A stretch of 41,985 nt of DNA from a virus (lineage: Duplodnaviria > Heunggongvirae > Uroviricota > Caudoviricetes), in the IMG/VR virus record IMGVR_UViG_2548876869_000013, positions 1 through 41,985 of that record, one strand, 5' to 3'. Shown piece after piece: positions 1 through 41,985 of the stretch (positions are counted from its first letter, which is position 1; the number at the start of each line of letters is the position of its first letter). A program made the translations under genes and the position numbers. The notes under the pieces are model-generated. The model did not search any database and had not been told where the DNA came from. It saw nothing but the letters and a program-made list of their open reading frames with translations.

Positions 1-1158
1 ATGCTCACCGTTAAGCAGATTGAAGCAGCAAAGCCGAAAGAAAAACCATACCGCCTACTCGATGGTAATGGCCTGTACCTTTATGTCCCTGTGTCAGGGA
101 AAAAGGTATGGCAGCTTCGCTACAAGATTGACGGTAAGGAGAAAATCCTGACCGTAGGAAAATATCCGCTAATGACTTTGCAGGAGGCAAGGGATAAAGC
201 ATGGACTGCGAGGAAAGACATCTCGGTTGGCATCGATCCGGTAAAAGCGAAAAAGGCTTCGTCTAACAACAATTCCTTTAGTGCGATTTACAAGGAATGG
301 TACGAGCACAAGAAGCAAGTCTGGTCAGTAGGCTATGCAACTGAACTTGCAAAAATGTTTGATGACGACATTTTACCTATCATCGGCGGCCTTGAAATTC
401 AGGATATTGAGCCGATGCAACTGCTGGAAGTAATCCGCAGATTTGAAGATCGCGGTGCAATGGAGCGAGCCAACAAAGCCCGCAGAAGATGCGGCGAGGT
501 TTTCCGTTACGCTATTGTCACTGGTAGGGCTAAATATAACCCGGCGCCTGACCTTGCTGACGCCATGAAGGGATACCGCAAGAAGAACTTCCCGTTTCTT
601 CCTGCAGACCAGATCCCTGCATTCAACAAAGCACTGGCAACATTTTCAGGAAGTATCGTATCGCTCATTGCCACCAAGGTTTTACGCTATACAGCCCTCA
701 GAACAAAAGAGCTTCGTTCCATGCTATGGAAGAACGTCGATTTTGAAAACAGGATTATCACCATTGACGCCAGTGTGATGAAGGGACGCAAAATTCATGT
801 GGTCCCGATGTCAGACCAGGTGGTTGAACTTCTCACTACGCTAAGCTCAATCACCAAACCAGTATCAGAGTTTGTTTTTGCCGGGCGCAACGATAAGAAG
901 AAGCCGATCTGCGAGAACGCGGTGCTGCTTGTGATCAAACAAATCGGCTATGAGGGTCTGGAAAGCGGTCACGGATTCAGGCATGAATTCAGCACGATTA
1001 TGAACGAGCACGAATGGCCTGCTGACGCTATTGAAGTGCAACTGGCACATGCCAACGGCGGATCTGTGCGCGGGATTTACAACCATGCACAGTATCTCGA
1101 TAAGCGCAGAGAAATGATGCAGTGGTGGGCGGACTGGCTTGATGGTTTAATAGTTTAA
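1..1158 (+). CDS. intS: Tyrosine integrase, P4/IntS type
   Basis: 385-aa ORF; N-terminus MLTVKQIEAAKPKEKPYRL typical of P4-family arm-binding domain; matches recalled E. coli KplE1 IntS in length and sequence; C-terminal catalytic region with R..H..R..Y-type context. Confidence 0.9.
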   Translation: MLTVKQIEAAKPKEKPYRLLDGNGLYLYVPVSGKKVWQLRYKIDGKEKILTVGKYPLMTLQEARDKAWTARKDISVGIDPVKAKKASSNNNSFSAIYKEWYEHKKQVWSVGYATELAKMFDDDILPIIGGLEIQDIEPMQLLEVIRRFEDRGAMERANKARRRCGEVFRYAIVTGRAKYNPAPDLADAMKGYRKKNFPFLPADQIPAFNKALATFSGSIVSLIATKVLRYTALRTKELRSMLWKNVDFENRIITIDASVMKGRKIHVVPMSDQVVELLTTLSSITKPVSEFVFAGRNDKKKPICENAVLLVIKQIGYEGLESGHGFRHEFSTIMNEHEWPADAIEVQLAHANGGSVRGIYNHAQYLDKRREMMQWWADWLDGLIV

Positions 1159-1200
1159 TAGTTTAATAGTTTAATAGTTTAATAGTTTAATAGTTTAATA
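1145..1200. repeat. Perfect tandem repeat GTTTAATA x7 (plus partial unit), overlapping the int stop codon
   Basis: Read directly: seven identical 8-bp units from 1145 to 1200, then GTTT. Confidence 0.95.
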
Positions 1201-1402
1201 GTTTCAGTCCAATATTACATTTTAGCATTGCAAACAAATATTCACTCACGCAACGGTTAATTAAGAAGCAACCAAGTAATCTTAGTGATGATGTTTCAGA
1301 ATGATGAGTAACAAATCGTTAAATCAAGTATTCGATGCTAGTGTTTTGAGCCTCTTTAGCTGATATTATTGTCGTTTACTCTACTTTACATTGAATTGTT
1401 TG

Positions 1403-3313
1403 ATGACCATGACTACACGATATAGATCTGATATTGATGGCCTACGAGCACTTGCTGTCCTTCTTGTTTTTGCTTATCACCTCAAGCTATCACCTTTTAG
1501 TGGCGGCTTTATTGGTGTTGATGTCTTCTTCGTTATCTCTGGATTTCTTATCACTGGTATTGTTATAAAAGCTATTGACAGAAATAGTTTCTCATTATCT
1601 GACTTCTTTAACAGAAGAATAAAGAGAATAGTACCAAATGTTTTTTTAGTTGCATCTTGTACAATTATAGCCGGATGGTTCATCCTATTACCAAAGGATT
1701 ATTCTTCACTTATTAGTAGCTATTTGTACACATCCATCTACGCTGCTAACTTTTATTTTTGGAAAGCGACAGGAGCTTATTTTTCATCTTCTGCAGATGA
1801 GATGCCACTACTTCATATGTGGTCATTGGCCGTAGAGGAGCAATATTACTTTATATGGCCAATTATTATTTTACTTGCACTAAAGCACATTAAGACAAAA
1901 CATATTGGTGTTATTACATTAATAATTTCAGTATTTGCCTTTATATTCTCTGAAATAATGGCAAGGCGTTACGCTGGGTTCTCATATTATATGCCAATCA
2001 CACGCTCTGGAGGCTTGCTTCTAGGGTCCGCCCTAGCATTAATGAATAGAGATTATAAAAAAATAAGGGAGTTTAATTCTTACATAGTAGTAATATTAGG
2101 AACTATTCTTATTGCGGCATCATCTGTAACAGTGAACAAATTATCAGTGTTTCCTGGGTTAAATTCTGCGATACCATCATTTGGTGCAATGTTAGTAATT
2201 TTAGGGGGGAACGGTTTTAATGGCAATGTGATATCAAAAATCTATGGTTCAAAAATAATATCCACAATTGGATTGCTATCATTCTCAATATATCTTTGGC
2301 ACTGGCCGTTGATTGCATATTCAACATATATGGGAGTGATAGACTCACTTGAAGTCAAATTGACAATAGTACTCCTGACATTTATTTTATCATATTTAAG
2401 TTTAAAATTCATTGAGAATCCAATAAGAAAATCAAAAATATCATTTGTTCGTTCTTTTATTTTTATTAACACATTTTTTATTGCAACTGCTTTTATTGTG
2501 TTGTTTATGTCAACTATAACAAATGGCTTCAAATTCAGAAGTGTAGGAGAAAATCATAATTTAGATGTGAAATATGCTGGAATGGACGAAGGATGGTGTC
2601 ATGTTAGCGCAGAAGGAAAAAATGGCATAACTTTTAATGAGTCTATGGCCAAATGTTATATAGGTGATAAAACATCAAATAAAGAAGCTCTATATATTGG
2701 TGATTCCAATGCAGGGCATTACGGTCCATTTGTAGATGAAATGGGTCGCAGGGCTGGAATAAAAATAAATCAACTGAGCACTTCATCTTGTTACCCAACA
2801 AGAGAAGTTAAGAAAGATGGAGAAAACCCTGATGTCTGCATAAACTTCAGAAGAATAATTAATGAAAAAATAAAATCTGGTAAATATGATACAATTATCA
2901 TTGCTAATAGATGGGCAAGGGATGATAAGAATATGTCATATAAAAACGCTAACTTCACCGAGTTCCTATCATTTTACTCATCTCACGCAAAGAAAGTTAT
3001 TATTATGGATCAAATGCCTGAGTGGGTAATAAATCCCGCTGCCTGCTACGAGAGAGGAACATGTGATGCTGAAACTAATTTTGATCTAGCACCAGGATTG
3101 GATGAGTCGCGTAAAAAAATAGAAAGCGCAGCATCACATTTTAATAATGTTTATCTTGTTGACCCGTACTACCTAATGCTTAAGAATAAAAAATACACAC
3201 CTTTCGCAATGGGATACCCTATGTACCATGACAATGGTCATTTAAGCATCAATGGAATGATGTGGATTGCGGAAAAATACTTGCAAGATAATAAAAACCC
3301 ACTTGAAGATTAA
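1403..3313 (+). CDS. Membrane acyltransferase-3 family protein with C-terminal SGNH-like domain (OafA/Oac-like O-antigen acetyltransferase)
   Basis: 640-aa ORF; N-terminal motif RSDIDGLRALAVLLVFAYHL and multiple hydrophobic segments typical of acyltransferase_3; soluble C-terminal half; very AT-rich versus flanks. Start ambiguous (TTG 1391, ATG 1403 or 1409). Confidence 0.75.
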   Translation: MTMTTRYRSDIDGLRALAVLLVFAYHLKLSPFSGGFIGVDVFFVISGFLITGIVIKAIDRNSFSLSDFFNRRIKRIVPNVFLVASCTIIAGWFILLPKDYSSLISSYLYTSIYAANFYFWKATGAYFSSSADEMPLLHMWSLAVEEQYYFIWPIIILLALKHIKTKHIGVITLIISVFAFIFSEIMARRYAGFSYYMPITRSGGLLLGSALALMNRDYKKIREFNSYIVVILGTILIAASSVTVNKLSVFPGLNSAIPSFGAMLVILGGNGFNGNVISKIYGSKIISTIGLLSFSIYLWHWPLIAYSTYMGVIDSLEVKLTIVLLTFILSYLSLKFIENPIRKSKISFVRSFIFINTFFIATAFIVLFMSTITNGFKFRSVGENHNLDVKYAGMDEGWCHVSAEGKNGITFNESMAKCYIGDKTSNKEALYIGDSNAGHYGPFVDEMGRRAGIKINQLSTSSCYPTREVKKDGENPDVCINFRRIINEKIKSGKYDTIIIANRWARDDKNMSYKNANFTEFLSFYSSHAKKVIIMDQMPEWVINPAACYERGTCDAETNFDLAPGLDESRKKIESAASHFNNVYLVDPYYLMLKNKKYTPFAMGYPMYHDNGHLSINGMMWIAEKYLQDNKNPLED

Positions 3314-3337
3314 TTGAGTTATAATTTTTATTGGTAA

Positions 3338-3370
3338 TATGAACCTCTTAATTTATGAGAGGTTCATATT
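3338..3370. terminator. Bidirectional hairpin between convergent acyltransferase and tailspike genes
   Basis: Inverted repeat ATATGAACCTCT..GAGAGGTTCATAT flanked by A/T runs. Confidence 0.6.
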
Positions 3371-3383
3371 TTCATTGAAATAT

Positions 3384-5363
3384 TTAATTGTGCTCCTTAG
3401 CAAAGCGCAAGCTACCTGCGCTTAATACTGCAGATAACGTATCTCCCACTCTAGTCACACTTAAGTTGCTAGTTCCTGCAATGTAACTAACAGTTGTCGT
3501 TGTTGCCAGTGTCATAACTATTGGTATAGTTATGACTCGTTCTGTACCTCCGCTATCAACAAACTGAACAGATAAAAACTGAAACCTTCTATTTATTTTA
3601 TATGAAAATGATAATCCAGATATGGATAATAATCCACTTTGTCCTATTTTTATATTCCAATCAGAAAAATCAGTTATGTTAGATGGGTCTATATTATTTT
3701 GCGAGTACCATGATGTTATTGCGCCTGATGATGTTTTTCCTTTAAAATAAACAAATGAACTACTTGCTTTTTTAAAATTATTATCACATATGATAACCAC
3801 CTCTTGAGTTGATAGTTTAGTTTCATCATAGAATGCGCTGGTAAGTACTGCGTCATCTGCGTTAACACCCCGTATCTCAGAAATCTTAGTCACACCAGCC
3901 CTGTCAGTGTCTTCCGCTTTGTTTATGAGAGAGTCTGTATTGTTTACCCACGCAGACAGCACTCTAGCCACAGGGGTGTTATACTGACGCATCAATTGCG
4001 AAACACCAGAGATAATACCTGCCTTTAAAGTGATTTCCTGGCAATTGTTGCCGTAAGCAAGGATTGGTTTATTCACCCCATCCCATCTATAATTACCAAC
4101 TTCAACATCAATTCGTCCACCACTGCACCATACAACAGCATTTGTTTGTCCTCCGTCAAACTTAACCCCATAAACAGCACCAACTTTAACAAAAGCGTAG
4201 CGTTCGGCGTTTATTTTCATTTGAAGCGGGTTGTTGCTGGTTCCCGTGACGTACCCAATATCTATACGGCAATTATCTCCTGCGCCATCTACGTTAATGC
4301 CGCGGTGGTCAGATCCAATAACCCCGCCAGAGCCGACAACGCTACAGTTTTCACAAGTAAAGAAACCAATAGGGTTGTTGTTGTGCGGTTTAGAATGAAT
4401 GGAGTTATATTCTGTACCTATCTTGCCGTTAAGAATGTAGGTAACATTTTTCATAACAGCTGTAATTGTGTAGTTATTGTCATCCCAAACCGTTGCATCA
4501 GGGTTAAGAAAATGTGCAAAGGACCACATCCCCCCGGAGTTTAACCCCATAATTTCTGGCCCTACCGTGGGGTCATCGTAACGCCCCATAACTGTAACCC
4601 CAGCTTCGTGGTGTATTTCTATATTATCTCGTAAGGGATGAATAGAGCCAAGAACATAAAAAGTACCTGTTGCACCATATTCAAATTTACTGAATCTTGT
4701 GTCTCTTACCAGTTTTTGAATTACATTACGGTTATGCGCAGCGTTTAGCGGAACATATTCACCTTCAATAATGCCAGCGGAAGCGAAATTAGGCGTCATT
4801 AAAATAAGATACCCGCCAACTGCAGAAATATAAAATATAGGTGACTGTGGTTTTTCAGTTGTAAACACCCAATCTGTTACAACTGGAACATTATAATAAT
4901 AAGTTCTAACCTTTTTCCCATCTGTTAACCCTAATATTGATTGGGCCTGTTCAACGGATGAGCATTCGAGAATAGCACCACCAACGATAATGGCTCCTGC
5001 GCTCCCCTGTAATTCTTGCCGTAGCTGATCAGGATCATACTTCAGAACATTAGGAAAATAGAACTGCTGCACACCGTACGCATCATAAATAGCCATAGAA
5101 TGGCCTTGCACAGTTACGAACTTAGCAATCTGTCCGTTATATACCGGATATCCAGCAGCGTTAATGATGATTGGTTGCGAAACAGGAACGTGAGAACCGT
5201 CTTCGTTTTCCACATAAACCTGAATCTGGTTTTCAGGATTTACCGGGTCAGTGTCAATTTTTCCGATATAAATTTTGCCATTGGCTACGGCTTTAAAAGA
5301 ACGAGCCATAGTGAAGAGTTGCGAAGGCATCGATACGATCACATTGGCTGTAATGTCTGTCAT
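3384..5363 (-). CDS. Tailspike protein; P22 gp9-like N-terminal head-binding domain, divergent receptor-binding domain
   Basis: 659 aa; first ~110 aa ([56 protein letters not shown]) closely match recalled P22 tailspike N-terminus; remainder differs. Confidence 0.9.
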
Positions 5364-31423: not shown

Positions 31424-32240
31424 CGTGTTCACCCTCACGAACTTTCAGGTAGGTATTGTCGTTAAGCAGGAAATCAAATCCCTTTTTGTGCCAGACGGTT
31501 CCGCGTTGATGGTTTGGGCGTTCTTCGAACATCCATCGGCAATTTTCGCCTACGTAGCTCAAATAATTTCTCCAGTCCTGCATCGTGAACCCATGCCCGT
31601 CAAGCTGGCGGGTTATCACTCCGGCTTTGCGCCAGAACGTTCGGATCTGGTTTTTACGCTTGTCATTCAGTGCGCGGATTCTTGGCGCTTCAGGAAGGAT
31701 TTCGTGGTAAGCATCGACAACATCCTGACAGCTAACGGAAGGTTTTTTCTTGTCAGACTTTTTGTCTGCTGTGGCACTCTCTAATACGTCAGTATTAGAG
31801 ATATTATTTATATTATTGTTTATGGACAACCGTTGGACAACCGTTGGACAATCTCCGCTGAGATCCGCGCCATTACTGGTGTTTGCGTTGGACAACCGTT
31901 GGACAACCGTTGGACAATTTTTTGCCTGAAAATCGTCATATTTAACGATTGTAAACAGGCTAAATTTCTTCCCCATCGAGCAAATATTAAGCATCCCTTT
32001 CGACTCAAAAGTCCGTAATAAGCTCCGAACTTTGTTGTCGGGGATGAATGTTTCTCTGACCAGCGACGGGCGTCCAGTTATCATCTGACCGCGATCAACA
32101 GTTATCGGACCGATATCCGTATTGACGACAGTAGATTCGTGATTAGCCTTGAGGATTAAGTGAAGCCAAAGATGTACTGCCTGAGAGTCCTTATAGAGCC
32201 TGCTGTCCATAAACTGGCGGTGTATAGAGACATACCCCAT
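31413..32240 (-). CDS. Replication initiation protein (O-like, P22 gene 18 position) containing ori iterons
   Basis: Start assigned at ATG 32240 (AGGAGG RBS); alternative ATG 32303. Iterons lie inside the coding sequence as in lambda O. Confidence 0.7.
   Translation of the reverse strand: MGYVSIHRQFMDSRLYKDSQAVHLWLHLILKANHESTVVNTDIGPITVDRGQMITGRPSLVRETFIPDNKVRSLLRTFESKGMLNICSMGKKFSLFTIVKYDDFQAKNCPTVVQRLSNANTSNGADLSGDCPTVVQRLSINNNINNISNTDVLESATADKKSDKKKPSVSCQDVVDAYHEILPEAPRIRALNDKRKNQIRTFWRKAGVITRQLDGHGFTMQDWRNYLSYVGENCRWMFEERPNHQRGTVWHKKGFDFLLNDNTYLKVREGEHDDR
31785..31920. repeat. Origin of replication: 11-bp iterons GGACAACCGTT in two clusters plus A/T-rich tract
   Basis: Direct repeats at 31824-31852 and 31888-31918, A/T-rich 31785-31822. 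Confidence 0.75.
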
Positions 32241-33829: not shown

Positions 33830-33911
33830 AAGCCAAACTTAAGTCACGAAAGAAAATTTAAGTTTTCTTCAAAAATATTCTTGACCGTTAATTAAAGAGA
33901 TCTTAAATTTA
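33830..33911 (+). promoter_or_regulatory. OL operators and PL promoter
   Basis: Operator ATTAAAGAGATCTTAAAT (33891-33908); -35 TTGACC (33881-33886), 17-nt spacer, -10 TAAATT (33904-33909). Confidence 0.6.
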
Positions 33912-40281: not shown

Positions 40282-40296
40282 CTGCAGGGGACACCA
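40282..40296. other. attR core: 3' end of argW (CTGCAGGGGACACCA)
   Basis: 15-nt identity to recalled argW 3' end (acceptor stem + CCA); the rest of the tRNA is absent here, as expected for attR. Confidence 0.6.
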
Positions 40297-40687
40297 GATA
40301 CCCTTCAAACGAAATCTACCTTCACCCCGTAAAAGATGGGTTTGGCAGCACACTTGCCTTATATCTACTCATTTTTACTGCAACAGGTTGAAATCTCAGC
40401 ACTGTCAGAAAGCGCTGATGACTAAACAGCCCTGAGCCGGGCGATGTAACCATCACACAGAATCCTGATAGCGAAATATGGCGTGACTCGATACTTCACT
40501 CCGCAATGCATTCCTTGATGAATTCGCAGGACCGTGATACACGGGACAGGTCACTGAATGACGACAATGTCCTGGAAATCAGCGAACCGCGCATCTGAAG
40601 TACATTTGAGCGACTGTACCAGAACATGAATGAGGCGTTTGGATTAGGCGATTATTAGCAGGGCTAAGCATTTTACTATTATTATTT

Positions 40688-40732
40688 TCCGGTTGAGGGA
40701 TATAGAGCTATCGACAACAACCGGAAAAAGTT
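40688..40732. terminator. Inverted-repeat terminator downstream of permease gene
   Basis: TTTCCGGTTG..CAACCGGAAA 10-bp stem with ~22-nt loop. Confidence 0.45.
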
Positions 40733-40737
40733 TACGT

Positions 40738-41985
40738 CTATATTGCTGAAGGTACAGGCGTTTCCATAACTATTTGCTCGCGTTTTTTACTCAAGAAGAA
40801 AATGCCAAATAGCAACATCAGGCAGACAATACCCGAAATTGCGAAGAAAACTGTTTGGTAGCCTGCGTGGTCAAAGAGTATCCCAGTCGGCGTTGAAAGC
40901 AGCACAATCCCAAGCGAACTGGCAATTTGAAAACCAATCAGAAAGATCGTCGACGACAGGCGCTTATCAAAGTTTGCCACGCTGTATTTGAAGACGGATA
41001 TGACACAAAGTGGAACCTCAATGGCATGTAACAACTTCACTAATGAAATAATCCAGGGGTTAACGAACAGCGCGCAGGAAAGGATACGCAACGCCATAAT
41101 CACAACTCCGATAAGTAATGCATTTTTTGGCCCTACCCGATTCACAAAGAAAGGAATAATCGCCATGCACAGCGCTTCGAGTACCACCTGGAATGAGTTG
41201 AGATAACCATACAGGCGCGTTCCTACATCGTGTGATTCGAATAAACCTGAATAAAAGACAGGAAAAAGTTGTTGATCAAAAATGTTATAGAAAGACCACG
41301 TCCCCACAATAAATATGACGAAAACCCAGAAGTTTCGATCCTTGAAAACTGCGATAAAATCCTCTTTTTTTACCCCTCCCGCATCTGCCGCTACGCACTG
41401 GTGATCCTTATCTTTAAAACGCATGTTGATCATCATAAATACAGCGCCAAATAGCGAGACCAACCAGAAGTTGATATGGGGACTGATACTAAAAAATATG
41501 CCGGCAAAGAACGCGCCAATAGCATAGCCAAAAGATCCCCAGGCGCGCGCTGTTCCATATTCGAAATGAAAATTTCGCGCCATTTTTTCGGTGAAGCTAT
41601 CAAGCAAACCGCATCCCGCCAGATACCCCAAGCCAAAAAATAGCGCCCCCAGAATTAGACCTACAGAAAAATTGCTTTGCAGTAACGGTTCATAAACGTA
41701 AATCATAAACGGTCCGGTCAAGACCAGGATGAAACTCATACACCAGATGAGCGGTTTCTTCAGACCGAGTTTATCCTGAACGATGCCGTAGAACATCATA
41801 AATAGAATGCTGGTAAACTGGTTGACCGAATAAAGTGTACCTAATTCCGTCCCTGTCAACCCTAGATGTCCTTTCAGCCAAATAGCGTATAACGACCACC
41901 ACAGCGACCAGGAAATAAAAAAGAGAAATGAGTAACTGGATGCAAAACGATAGTACGCATTTCTGAATGGAATATTCAGTGCCAT
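40738..41985 (-). CDS. cscB: LacY-family oligosaccharide:H+ symporter (sucrose permease CscB-like); host gene
   Basis: 415 aa, 12 predicted TM segments; N-terminus MALNIPFRNAYYRFASSYSFLFFISW matches recalled CscB; csc locus is known to sit beside argW in csc+ E. coli. Confidence 0.75.
   Translation of the reverse strand: MALNIPFRNAYYRFASSYSFLFFISWSLWWSLYAIWLKGHLGLTGTELGTLYSVNQFTSILFMMFYGIVQDKLGLKKPLIWCMSFILVLTGPFMIYVYEPLLQSNFSVGLILGALFFGLGYLAGCGLLDSFTEKMARNFHFEYGTARAWGSFGYAIGAFFAGIFFSISPHINFWLVSLFGAVFMMINMRFKDKDHQCVAADAGGVKKEDFIAVFKDRNFWVFVIFIVGTWSFYNIFDQQLFPVFYSGLFESHDVGTRLYGYLNSFQVVLEALCMAIIPFFVNRVGPKNALLIGVVIMALRILSCALFVNPWIISLVKLLHAIEVPLCVISVFKYSVANFDKRLSSTIFLIGFQIASSLGIVLLSTPTGILFDHAGYQTVFFAISGIVCLMLLFGIFFLSKKREQIVMETPVPSAI

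What the first reader, a model, noticed from the sequence alone, without database searches (positions are those of the whole stretch)
1145..3313. Perfect 8-bp x7 tandem repeat at the int stop codon, upstream of an AT-rich OafA-like acyltransferase
Seven exact GTTTAATA units span the last codons and stop of int, ~190 bp upstream of a long acyltransferase-3/SGNH gene of the O-antigen acetylase type. Exact short tandem repeats of this length are prone to slipped-strand copy-number change and could alter promoter spacing for the seroconversion gene or the Int C-terminus. The acyltransferase plus the divergent tailspike receptor domain form a receptor-modification/receptor-recognition pair.
Basis: partly seen in the sequence, partly recalled or inferred. 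Interest (0 to 1): 0.45.

Follow-up and report, generated by a model that had tools for sequence, protein, structure and literature searches.

The report
Variable 8-bp repeat beside O104 acetylase
A perfect 8-base repeat between the integrase and an O-antigen acetyltransferase gene of an E. coli O104 prophage is real and changes copy number (3.5 to 13.5) between near-identical strains, but it cannot alter the integrase or promoter spacing, and any effect on the acetylase is unproven.

Summary
GTTTAATA x7.5, perfect, lies at 1145-1204. The int stop (TAA 1156-1158) sits in unit 2. An AT3+SGNH acyltransferase gene starts 198 bp downstream (ATG 1403).

The window is the argW P22-like prophage of E. 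coli 55989 (O104:H4). It differs from RefSeq 55989 by 1 SNP in 41,985 nt plus exactly 3 repeat units.

In 24 complete genomes and 3 metagenome contigs the flanks next to the array are identical. Copy number is 3.5, 4.5, 5.5, 7.5, 9.5, 12.5 or 13.5. Laboratory stocks of one strain (MRE162) carry 5.5 versus 13.5. So this is a real hypermutable VNTR.

- Int C-terminus: any array of 2 or more units gives the same end, ...GLIV*.
- Promoter spacing: a 28-108 bp array cannot sit between -35 and -10. The only good promoter element, an extended -10 (TGaTATTAT, 1361-1369), lies 157 bp downstream.

The receptor pair idea is supported and already published. Scholl 2012 showed this tailspike to be O104-specific. 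All 24 carriers are among the 37 of 5,426 genomes with O104 wzx.

Whether copy number tunes the acetylase is untested. The closest analogue is CUS-3 neuO. A G6/G7 frameshift tract inside the acetylase gene was also found.

The parts
1..1158 (+). intS-type tyrosine integrase (385 aa). The last 4 codons and the stop come from repeat units 1-2.
   Evidence: ORF. Pfam Arm-DNA-bind_3, Phage_int_M and Phage_integrase. It is 96-98% identical in nucleotides to Sf6/HK620/CUS-3 int up to position 1144 only. Those relatives end ...WLDEKVE*/EKVR*; here the end is ...WLDGLIV*.
1075..1144 (+). Tail of intS (its last 44-70 nt) that travels with the repeat and acyltransferase cassette into prophages with other integrases.
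   Evidence: In A11 homology to the window starts at 1075. In NCTC9104 and MRE162 NOR it starts at 1101 (flanks printed). The same 70 nt is present in the phages Gally, Huey, ev099 and mEp332, which matched the window only over that stretch.
1145..1204 (+). Perfect VNTR, GTTTAATA x7.5. It contains stop codons in all six frames, contains no C on the + strand, and has no predicted secondary structure.
   Evidence: Copy-number polymorphism. Single-stranded DNA fold energy is 0 kcal/mol.
1205..1402 (+). Invariant 198-nt leader/promoter region of the acyltransferase gene.
   Evidence: 0 mismatches in 202 nt across 12 loci. No Rfam match. As RNA it folds worse than shuffled sequence, z = +2.25. No intrinsic terminator is predicted. 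No GATC is visible in the sequence.
1361..1369 (+). Extended -10 element TGaTATTAT, the most likely acyltransferase promoter (inferred).
   Evidence: My own hexamer scan. It is the only element in 1100-1402 with 5 of 6 matches to TATAAT and an upstream TG. It lies 34 nt before ATG 1403. The 61%-identical homologue L017 also has TATAAT about 25 nt before its start.
1403..3313 (+). AT3 + SGNH two-domain acyltransferase (636 aa), a candidate O104 O-antigen O-acetyltransferase. GC about 34%.
   Evidence: Pfam. It is 33% identical to Salmonella phage BTP1 GtrC and g341c O-antigen acetylase. R15, H26, the R71/R72/R75 motif, GDS at 433-435 and D610/H613 are invariant in the alignment with BTP1 GtrC. 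Composition. RefSeq annotates it as 'acyltransferase family protein', WP_000178979.1.
2199..2204 (+). G6 homopolymer inside the acyltransferase ORF. G7 alleles are frameshifted.
   Evidence: L014 and L016 carry G7, giving a stop at residue 273. They share all 8 marker SNPs with the intact G6 allele of strain A11.
3337..3373 (+). Hairpin (12-bp stem, 9-nt loop) followed by a T run: the likely terminator of the acyltransferase gene, between it and the convergent tailspike gene.
   Evidence: Read directly. The scan allows loops of at most 8 nt, so it did not list this hairpin.
3384..5363 (-). P22-like tailspike (659 aa) with an O104/K9-specific receptor-binding domain.
   Evidence: Pfam Head_binding at residues 1-113. 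8 differences in 1417 nt from the O104:H4 outbreak gene. The outbreak-strain tailspike (EGR74047, also 659 aa) fused to a pyocin killed only O104 and K9 strains (PMC3303846); that EGR74047 is this locus is inferred from the paper's description, not checked by sequence. The receptor domain is 78% identical in amino acids to the tail fibre of phage CLB_P1 and 93% to a phage whose recorded host is O104:H4.

Best explanation
The array is a genuine hypermutable microsatellite (VNTR). It sits at the junction where an AT-rich seroconversion cassette was joined to the 3' end of intS in P22-like prophages of O104 E. coli. The cassette comprises the leader, the AT3-SGNH acetyltransferase gene and its terminator, and it lies next to an O104 tailspike gene.

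Shown:
- The array gains and loses whole 8-bp units far faster than the surrounding DNA changes.
- It replaces the native last four codons of Int and supplies the stop codon. Because the stop is in unit 2, copy number is invisible to Int.
- It travels with the acetylase cassette into prophages that use other integrases.

Inferred:
- The length changes arise by slipped-strand mispairing during replication.
- The acetylase is transcribed from its own proximal extended -10 promoter at 1361-1369, about 157 bp downstream of the array. In IntS prophages, int read-through probably adds to this, because no terminator is predicted in between.
- Array length therefore cannot act as an on/off switch. At most it grades transcription as a distal AT-rich upstream or leader element.

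My best estimate is that it is a near-neutral passenger of the cassette with little or no regulatory output.
For: Array length:
- Seven allele sizes (3.5, 4.5, 5.5, 7.5, 9.5, 12.5, 13.5) occur, every unit perfect, with identical 30-nt upstream and 40-nt downstream flanks.
- The window and RefSeq 55989 align over 41,985 nt with 1 mismatch and one 24-nt gap inside the array.
- MRE162 NOR has 44 bp and MRE162 UK/FRA 108 bp, with 0 mismatches in 2952 + 3596 nt of flanks. All three are clones of one 1949 isolate (PMC10652920).
- A11 and the contigs L014/L016 share 8 marker SNPs but carry 12.5 and 5.5 units.

Int:
- RefSeq annotates intS at 1158 nt in the 3.5-, 4.5- and 5.5-unit alleles.

Promoter and leader:
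- The extended -10 at 1361-1369 is the only strong element.
- An in-frame TGA at 1361 rules out translational linkage to the array.
- No terminator is predicted in 1159-1402.
- The leader is invariant.

Against a specific binding site or a required partner of the gene:
- The 61%- and 53%-identical homologues have no upstream repeat.
- The octamer is absent from the rest of the prophage.

Stability:
- The 15 O104:H4 outbreak-clade genomes, including laboratory derivatives, all give the matched length that corresponds to 5.5 units. This fits a moderate rather than an extreme slippage rate.
Against: - No allele below 3.5 units was seen, and every array is free of interruptions. That could mean the array is maintained by selection rather than drifting neutrally.
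- The same prophage family, at the same int-tailspike slot, carries the proven repeat-controlled acetyltransferase neuO.
- The promoter assignment rests on consensus matching only. There is no transcription start data.
- Effects of an AT-rich tract on H-NS binding or on transcription from a distance cannot be excluded by sequence analysis.
Confidence: 0.55

Rival explanations
1. The array is a contingency 'rheostat'. Its length tunes transcription of the O104 acetyltransferase from a distance. Possible routes are changed H-NS or nucleoid-protein occupancy of an AT-rich platform, changed helical phasing or distance between an upstream element and the promoter, or changed stability of an int-acetylase read-through mRNA whose AU-rich leader contains the repeat. 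Lysogen populations would then be heterogeneous in O-antigen O-acetylation, and so in phage and immune recognition.
For: - The array is hypermutable and always perfect.
- It travels with the acetylase gene into three different integration contexts: argW, the bioA-ybhB region and the dacD region.
- It never falls below 3.5 units.
- It lies upstream of a surface-modifying gene in a 34% GC island.
- No terminator separates int from the acetylase gene, so the array is probably transcribed.
- CUS-3 neuO sets a precedent in the same slot of the same phage family (PMC3046976 abstract).
- From my own knowledge: promoter-distal repeats that modulate transcription are known, for example the Neisseria nadA TAAA tract and the Haemophilus hmw1A/2A 7-bp repeats.
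Against: - The array ends 157 bp upstream of the best -10 element.
- Allele sizes show no phasing pattern.
- The outbreak clade is monomorphic at 5.5 units.
- More distant homologues of the gene lack any repeat.
- The cassette is 99.5-100% identical everywhere, so recent spread alone can explain why the array persists.
- No expression data exist.
Confidence: 0.3
2. Classical phase variation: copy-number change alters -35/-10 promoter spacing of the acetylase gene, or changes the Int C-terminus.
For: Weak promoter-like hexamers exist at the 3' edge of the array, namely -35 TTAATA at 1187-1192 with -10 AATATT at 1211-1216. The int reading frame does run into the array.
Against: - Any hexamer inside the array keeps a fixed distance to the flank it pairs with, whatever the copy number. 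A 28-108 bp tract also cannot fit in a 16-19 bp spacer.
- The int stop is in unit 2, so all observed alleles (3.5 or more units) encode the same protein.
- An in-frame stop at 1361 separates the array from the acetylase ORF.
Confidence: 0.03
3. The copy-number differences are assembly or sequencing artefacts, and the array is in fact stable.
For: Assemblers can collapse or break at repeats. One metagenome contig ends inside the array (L015). MRE162 NOR was sequenced with a different library and instrument from UK and FRA.
Against: - The longest array is 108 bp. Within MRE162, two independent laboratories obtained 13.5 units.
- 15 independent assemblies of the outbreak clade all give the matched length that corresponds to 5.5 units.
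- Seven different sizes, all exact multiples of 8 with perfect units, come from assemblies made by many different laboratories.
Confidence: 0.04
4. The unit is a recognition site for a DNA-binding protein, such as an IntS arm-type site, a phage repressor site or a host regulator site, and the array is a multimerised binding platform.
For: IntS has an arm-binding domain. Tandem direct repeats are typical of arm sites and iterons.
Against: - In this phage group attP lies upstream of int, not downstream.
- The octamer occurs nowhere else in the prophage, including near attR at 40282-40296.
- The array persists in prophages that lack IntS.
- By inspection only, the 8-bp period does not fit the spacing of the direct-repeat sites I checked (PhoP, OmpR, CpxR).
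Confidence: 0.05

Closest known systems
CUS-3 prophage neuO poly-psi VNTR (E. coli K1 polysialic acid O-acetyltransferase)
   Same: It is the same phage family with the same argW integrase (98% nucleotide identity over int 1-1144). The layout is the same: int, then an acetyltransferase moron, then a convergent tailspike. The prophage carries an O-acetyltransferase; its substrate is a sialic-acid-containing surface polysaccharide, as is the presumed substrate here. Next to it is a short perfect tandem repeat whose copy number varies.
   Different: The neuO repeat is a heptanucleotide (AAGACTC, 19 copies in the CUS-3 record) annotated as the poly(psi) domain of neuO. From my own knowledge, this domain lies in the 5' coding region and switches translation on or off by frame. 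Here the unit is 8 bp, the array overlaps the int stop and ends 198 bp upstream of the acetylase ORF, and an in-frame stop lies between them. NeuO is a soluble hexapeptide-repeat enzyme, whereas this protein is a membrane AT3-SGNH enzyme.
Sf6 oac, and Salmonella OafA / BTP1 GtrC (family II) O-antigen acetyltransferases of P22-like phages
   Same: They occupy the same module position between int and the tailspike. All have an AT3 domain. BTP1 GtrC has the same AT3+SGNH architecture and the same invariant catalytic residues at 33% identity.
   Different: None of them has a tandem repeat. From my own knowledge, the P22-type gtr operons phase-vary through Dam/OxyR and GATC sites. No GATC is visible in 1205-1402. 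Sf6 Oac lacks the SGNH domain, since its gene is only 1002 nt.
Promoter-distal or leader repeats that grade transcription (Neisseria meningitidis nadA TAAA tract; Haemophilus influenzae hmw1A/hmw2A 7-bp repeats). Cited from my own knowledge, not tested here.
   Same: A perfect short repeat lies upstream of the core promoter or in the leader of a surface-related gene, with natural copy-number variation over a wide range.
   Different: In those systems expression was measured against copy number. Here nothing is measured, the organism is E. coli, and the tract lies further from the promoter (about 157 bp).
E. coli VNTR loci used for MLVA typing
   Same: It is a polymorphic short tandem repeat that differs between lineages but is stable within an outbreak clone (5.5 units in all 15 outbreak-clade genomes).
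   Different: I found no description of this locus. The two-unit 16-mer occurs in 0 of about 8 million searchable papers, and a keyword search returned nothing relevant. It is confined to O104 strains that carry this prophage module.

Membership tests
Simple-sequence-repeat contingency (phase-variable) locus | Perfect short tandem repeat tract | tested here: met
   8 bp x 7.5, 100% matches. Every allele in 15 other loci is also perfect.
Simple-sequence-repeat contingency (phase-variable) locus | Copy number varies between otherwise near-identical genomes, much faster than point substitution | tested here: met
   The window differs from RefSeq 55989 by 3 units against 1 SNP in 42 kb. MRE162 stocks differ by 8 units with 0 SNPs in 6.5 kb.
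Simple-sequence-repeat contingency (phase-variable) locus | Tract lies inside the ORF or between the -35 and -10 of the controlled gene, so that a unit change switches expression | tested here: not met
   The array ends 198 bp before ATG 1403. An in-frame TGA sits at 1361. The array (28-108 bp) exceeds any promoter spacer, and the best -10 lies at 1364-1369.
Simple-sequence-repeat contingency (phase-variable) locus | Expression of the neighbouring gene changes with copy number | not testable with these tools
   This needs reporter fusions or qRT-PCR on isogenic alleles.
neuO-type mobile contingency locus (CUS-3) | Carried in the int-tailspike slot of an argW-integrating P22-like prophage | tested here: met
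   tRNA-Arg lies upstream of intS in 55989, O104:H4 and TOK-001. The attR core is at 40282-40296.
neuO-type mobile contingency locus (CUS-3) | Heptanucleotide repeats within the 5' coding region of the acetyltransferase gene | tested here: not met
   The unit is 8 bp and lies outside the acetyltransferase ORF.
AT3-SGNH (OafA/OafB/GtrC family II) carbohydrate O-acetyltransferases | N-terminal AT3 membrane domain fused to a C-terminal SGNH domain | tested here: met
   Pfam PF01757 at residues 8-329 (7e-24) and PF19040 at 397-625 (2e-32).
AT3-SGNH (OafA/OafB/GtrC family II) carbohydrate O-acetyltransferases | Conserved catalytic residues: the AT3 TM1 Arg and His, the RxxR motif, and the SGNH GDS and DxxH motifs | tested here: met
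   R15, H26, R71/R72/R75, G433-D434-S435, D610 and H613 are invariant against BTP1 GtrC and a 61% homologue. Which residues are catalytic comes from my own knowledge of the family. A sequence search of PDB chains gave no hit at E <= 0.001.
AT3-SGNH (OafA/OafB/GtrC family II) carbohydrate O-acetyltransferases | Acetylates the O-antigen (here O104, which contains Neu5,7,9Ac3) | not testable with these tools
   Only proposed in the literature (PMC3303846). O104 contains O-acetylated Neu5Ac (PMC7685785). The host restriction to O104 genomes is consistent with this.
P22-like O-antigen-specific tailspike paired with a seroconversion gene | Conserved head-binding N-terminal domain plus a receptor domain specific for the host O-antigen | tested here: met
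   Head_binding at 1-113. The gene is 99.4% identical in nucleotides to that of the O104:H4 outbreak strain. The outbreak-strain tailspike gave O104/K9-specific killing as a pyocin fusion (PMC3303846).
P22-like O-antigen-specific tailspike paired with a seroconversion gene | The module co-occurs with the matching host serogroup | tested here: met
   24 of 24 carriers are among the 37 of 5,426 complete genomes with O104 wzx. No non-O104 genome carries the module.
Promoter-distal repeat that modulates transcription (nadA / hmw type) | Repeat lies upstream of the core promoter or in the leader of the regulated gene | tested here: inconclusive
   The geometry fits if the promoter is the extended -10 at 1361-1369, but no transcription start data are available.

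The most novel reading that the evidence does not exclude
The array, together with the G6 tract inside the gene, makes the O104 acetyltransferase a two-level contingency locus. Array length would grade transcription and G6/G7 slippage would switch translation on and off. Populations of EAEC/STEC O104:H4 would then vary O-acetylation of their sialic-acid-containing O-antigen. This would be a second, mechanistically different counterpart of K1 neuO on the same family of argW prophages, with consequences for superinfection by O104-specific phages, killing by tailspike-based pyocins and immune recognition.
Probability: 0.2. Interest if true: 0.7.

Novelty: new member of a known kind. Interest (0 to 1): 0.42.

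Why it matters
The locus sits in the prophage remnant that the 2011 O104:H4 outbreak strain retained (PMC3303846). It lies beside the only candidate gene outside the O-antigen cluster for O-acetylating the O104 antigen.

The array is a proven length-variable marker, which gives it immediate use for fine typing of O104 lineages:
- 55989 reference: 4.5 units
- this window: 7.5 units
- outbreak clade: 5.5 units

It also serves as a check on laboratory stock drift, as MRE162 shows.

If array length or the G6 tract modulates the acetylase, O104 would join K1 as a sialylated E. coli surface whose O-acetylation is made variable by a prophage. That would bear on phage therapy and on pyocin targeting of O104.

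If the array is neutral, it is a clean example of a junction microsatellite created by exchange of a phage module.

Tried and rejected
- attP or arm-site idea: rejected. In Sf6, HK620 and CUS-3, attP/attL lies upstream of int, and the octamer is absent elsewhere in the window.
- Dam/OxyR phase variation as in the P22 gtr operon: no GATC in 1205-1402 (read).
- Structured RNA, riboswitch or terminator in the leader: Rfam found nothing. The RNA folds worse than shuffles, the array has no DNA hairpin, and no terminator is predicted.
- Strict sigma-70 scan: it found no promoter in 1145-1402. A looser scan of my own found the extended -10.
- Repeats upstream of more distant homologues: none in L017 (61% identical) or in the Morganella locus L020 (53%).
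- Wider surveys: IMG/VR gave one locus. GTDB species representatives gave none. Metagenomes gave two contigs.
- Three-unit 24-mer in IMG/VR: the other 16 contigs that matched do not carry the 3' flank of this cassette (one search found that flank only in L014), and nine are labelled giant-virus MAGs. I did not examine them further.
- Exact-protein look-up: the protein is in 631 collection blocks, but only 4 non-redundant places were shown and no new allele appeared.
- Literature: the 8-mer search was uninformative, with 661 irrelevant papers. The 16-mer gave 0 papers, and a keyword search for a described VNTR gave nothing relevant.
- PDB sequence search with the acetylase: no hit.
- Binding-site consensus checks (PhoP, OmpR, CpxR, IHF, Fis, Lrp) were done by eye only. 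None fits an 8-bp period that has no C.


Full report
**1. The observation**

Tandem Repeats Finder reports one array at 1145-1204: unit GTTTAATA, 7.5 copies, 100% matches, score 120. The next best array in the window scores 64. Reading the sequence confirms seven full units plus GTTT. A three-unit 24-mer is expected 0.00 times in dinucleotide-preserving shuffles, even with two mismatches allowed. The octamer occurs nowhere else in the 41,985-nt window, against 1.38 matches expected.

The int ORF is 1..1158. Its last codons, GGT TTA ATA GTT TAA, are repeat units 1 and 2, so the stop is at 1156-1158.

The next ORF carries Pfam Acyl_transf_3 and the AT3-fused SGNH domain. RefSeq annotation of identical loci places its start at the ATG that corresponds to window 1403. 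That is 198 bp after the array.

**2. What the window is**

The window aligns end to end with E. coli 55989 (O104:H4 EAEC, NC_011748.1) from the intS ATG to the cscB gene. There is one mismatch (33887) and one 24-nt gap, and the gap is exactly three repeat units. The 15-bp core shared with the tRNA-Arg (argW) end recurs at 40282-40296. The prophage therefore ends there, and 40297-41985 is host DNA.

The phage is a P22-like lederbergvirus of the Sf6/HK620/CUS-3 group. Its int is 96-98% identical to theirs, but only up to position 1144. Those relatives end ...WLDEKVE* or ...EKVR*. Here the last four codons are replaced by repeat sequence, giving ...WLDGLIV*.

In this group attP lies upstream of int. 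The array is therefore not part of the attachment site.

**3. Copy number varies**

Among 5,426 complete E. coli genomes, 24 carry the int tail, the array and the acyltransferase gene. I fetched 10 of these loci, and later two more, and counted units. I also counted three metagenome or virome contigs. The 30 nt before the array and the 40 nt after it are identical in all of them.

| Units | Source |
|---|---|
| 3.5 | TOK-001 |
| 4.5 | RefSeq 55989, NCCP15648, NCCP13905 |
| 5.5 | O104:H4 outbreak and 2009 Georgian isolates, MRE162-NOR, two metagenome contigs |
| 7.5 | this window; one contig that ends inside the array has at least 7.5 |
| 9.5 | NCTC9104 |
| 12.5 | A11 |
| 13.5 | MRE162-UK and MRE162-FRA |

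For the outbreak clade, two genomes and one further draft assembly were counted directly. The other 13 were inferred from the identical matched length.

Three comparisons show that the array changes much faster than the surrounding DNA:
- The window and RefSeq 55989 differ by 3 units and by 1 SNP in 42 kb.
- The MRE162 stocks derive from one 1949 isolate that was distributed in 2002 and 2014 (PMC10652920). They differ by 64 bp in the array and by 0 of 6,548 flanking bases.
- A11 and the contigs L014/L016 share all 8 marker SNPs in the acyltransferase gene, yet carry 12.5 and 5.5 units.

Every array is uninterrupted. The outbreak clade, including laboratory derivatives, is uniformly 5.5 units. 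The rate is therefore high relative to point mutation, but not so high that clonal consensus sequences differ.

Assembly artefact is unlikely. The array is at most 108 bp, and independent assemblies of the same clone agree.

**4. What copy number can and cannot do**

Int. The stop codon lies in unit 2, so every allele with at least two units encodes the same 385-aa protein. RefSeq annotates intS at 1158 nt in the 3.5-, 4.5- and 5.5-unit alleles. By my reading, only a contraction to 1.5 units would extend Int, by about 21 residues. No such allele was seen.

Translation of the acetylase. The array cannot be linked to it, because an in-frame TGA lies at 1361.

Promoter spacing. A tract of 28-108 bp cannot lie between a -35 and a -10. 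Any hexamer inside the array also keeps a fixed distance to whichever flank it pairs with. The strict promoter scan finds nothing in 1145-1402. A looser scan finds only one good element, an extended -10 (TGaTATTAT) at 1361-1369, 34 nt before the ATG and 157 bp after the array. The 61%-identical homologue also has TATAAT just upstream of its start.

The leader. No intrinsic terminator is predicted between int and the acetylase gene. In IntS prophages the array is therefore probably transcribed as part of an int read-through RNA. In A11, a hairpin followed by a T run, visible in the sequence printed, lies just upstream of the int remnant. If it terminates transcription, the cassette must carry its own promoter. 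The leader has no Rfam match, folds worse than shuffled sequence, and contains no GATC. The array itself has no hairpin potential.

What remains possible is a distal, graded effect. The array could act as an AT-rich platform for nucleoid proteins, change the distance or helical phase to something upstream, or alter stability of an AU-rich leader. None of this can be tested here.

**5. The array is part of a mobile module**

In A11 (prophage next to bioA-ybhB) and in NCTC9104 and MRE162 (prophage next to dacD) there is no IntS. Even so, the last 70 or 44 nt of intS, the array, the invariant 198-nt leader, the acyltransferase gene and a tailspike gene are all present.

The acyltransferase gene is 99.5-100% identical in all loci. 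The tailspike occurs in three homologous alleles, at about 100%, 94% and 71% nucleotide identity.

More distant homologues of the acyltransferase gene have no upstream repeat. These are the 61%-identical gene in another viral contig and the 53%-identical gene in a Morganella prophage. The array is therefore a feature of this one recently spread cassette. It is not a conserved partner of the gene family.

**6. The receptor pair**

The protein has the two-domain AT3-SGNH architecture. R15, H26, the RRIKR motif, GDS at 433-435 and D610/H613 are conserved against Salmonella phage BTP1 GtrC, to which it is 33% identical.

The tailspike's O104 specificity is already experimental knowledge. Scholl et al. 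fused residues 114-659 of the outbreak strain's P22-like tailspike (EGR74047) to an R-type pyocin and obtained killing restricted to O104 and K9 strains. They also pointed to the adjacent putative acetylase as a candidate for the known O-acetylation of O104 (PMC3303846). The receptor domain is 78% identical to the tail fibre of phage CLB_P1 and 93% identical to a phage whose recorded host is O104:H4.

I added a host test. A 32-nt O104 wzx probe sequence, recalled from memory, hits 37 of 5,426 complete genomes, each time in a gene annotated as the O104 flippase. All 24 carriers of the module are among those 37, and no other genome carries it.

**7. Comparison with known systems**

The nearest precedent is neuO of CUS-3. 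It is an O-acetyltransferase for a sialic acid polymer in the same int-tailspike slot of an argW prophage with a 98%-identical integrase, and it is controlled by a variable tandem repeat (PMC3046976 abstract). The differences are decisive for membership. The neuO repeat is a heptamer annotated as part of the neuO gene, and the enzyme belongs to another fold family.

The geometry here resembles promoter-distal repeats such as the nadA TAAA tract or the hmw 7-bp repeats. That comparison rests on my own knowledge and was not tested.

I found no description of this locus in the literature. The two-unit 16-mer occurs in none of the searchable papers, and a keyword search returned nothing relevant.

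**8. Verdict**

The repeat is real, far beyond chance, and demonstrably hypermutable. It is best described as a junction microsatellite of the O104 seroconversion module. It patches the Int C-terminus and supplies the int stop codon. Copy number has no effect on Int. It cannot act through promoter spacing.

I put 0.55 on a near-neutral passenger and 0.3 on a graded regulator of the acetylase. The remainder goes to the minor rivals.

A separate observation may matter more for on/off control. A G6 tract inside the acetylase ORF (2199-2204) is G7, and so frameshifted, in two contigs from different collections. These contigs are otherwise identical to the intact allele of strain A11.

I score interest as moderate. 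This is an apparently undescribed variable locus in a well-known pathogen lineage with an attractive analogue in neuO, but it has no demonstrated function.

Noticed in passing
window 2199-2204: There is a G6 homopolymer inside the acyltransferase ORF, unusual in a 34% GC gene. Two contigs from different collections (IMG/VR L014 and ENA L016) carry G7, which frameshifts the gene to a stop at residue 273. They share all 8 marker SNPs with the intact G6 allele of strain A11. This may be a second slippage-prone tract that switches the gene off.
   Followed up: partly
window 1-41985, attR core at 40282-40296, SNP at 33887: The window is the E. coli 55989 chromosome from the intS start to cscB. It differs from NC_011748.1 by 1 mismatch plus the 24-nt repeat difference. 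The prophage ends at the 15-bp argW core CTGCAGGGGACACCA, and 40297-41985 is host DNA.
   Followed up: yes
window 1075-1144: The last 70 nt of intS also occur in phages that matched the window only over this stretch (Gally, Huey, vB_EcoP-720R6, ev099, mEp332). They also sit upstream of the array in the prophage of strain A11, which lacks IntS. This stretch looks like a recurrent boundary of module exchange.
   Followed up: partly
window 3384-5363 compared with L004, L007, L008, L009, L014: The tailspike next to the near-identical acyltransferase gene comes in three homologous alleles, at about 100%, 94% and 71% nucleotide identity. All are in O104-wzx hosts. In TOK-001 the tailspike is split into two ORFs of 477 and 191 aa, so it is probably a pseudogene.
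   Followed up: partly
window 31823-31917: Two adjacent sets of perfect 11-bp repeats (TGGACAACCGT x2.6 and CGTTGGACAAC x2.9) lie inside the gene next to the DnaB-like helicase gene. They are probably origin iterons within a lambda-O-like replication gene.
   Followed up: no
window 3337-3373: A 12-bp-stem hairpin followed by a T run lies between the convergent acyltransferase and tailspike genes and is a likely terminator. The automatic scan missed it because its loop is 9 nt.
   Followed up: no
E. coli genomes: 13 of the 37 complete genomes with O104 wzx lack the module. They include O104:H21 CFSAN002236, 94-3024, RM9387 and the FORC strains. They would be natural controls for whether O104 O-acetylation depends on this gene.
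   Followed up: no
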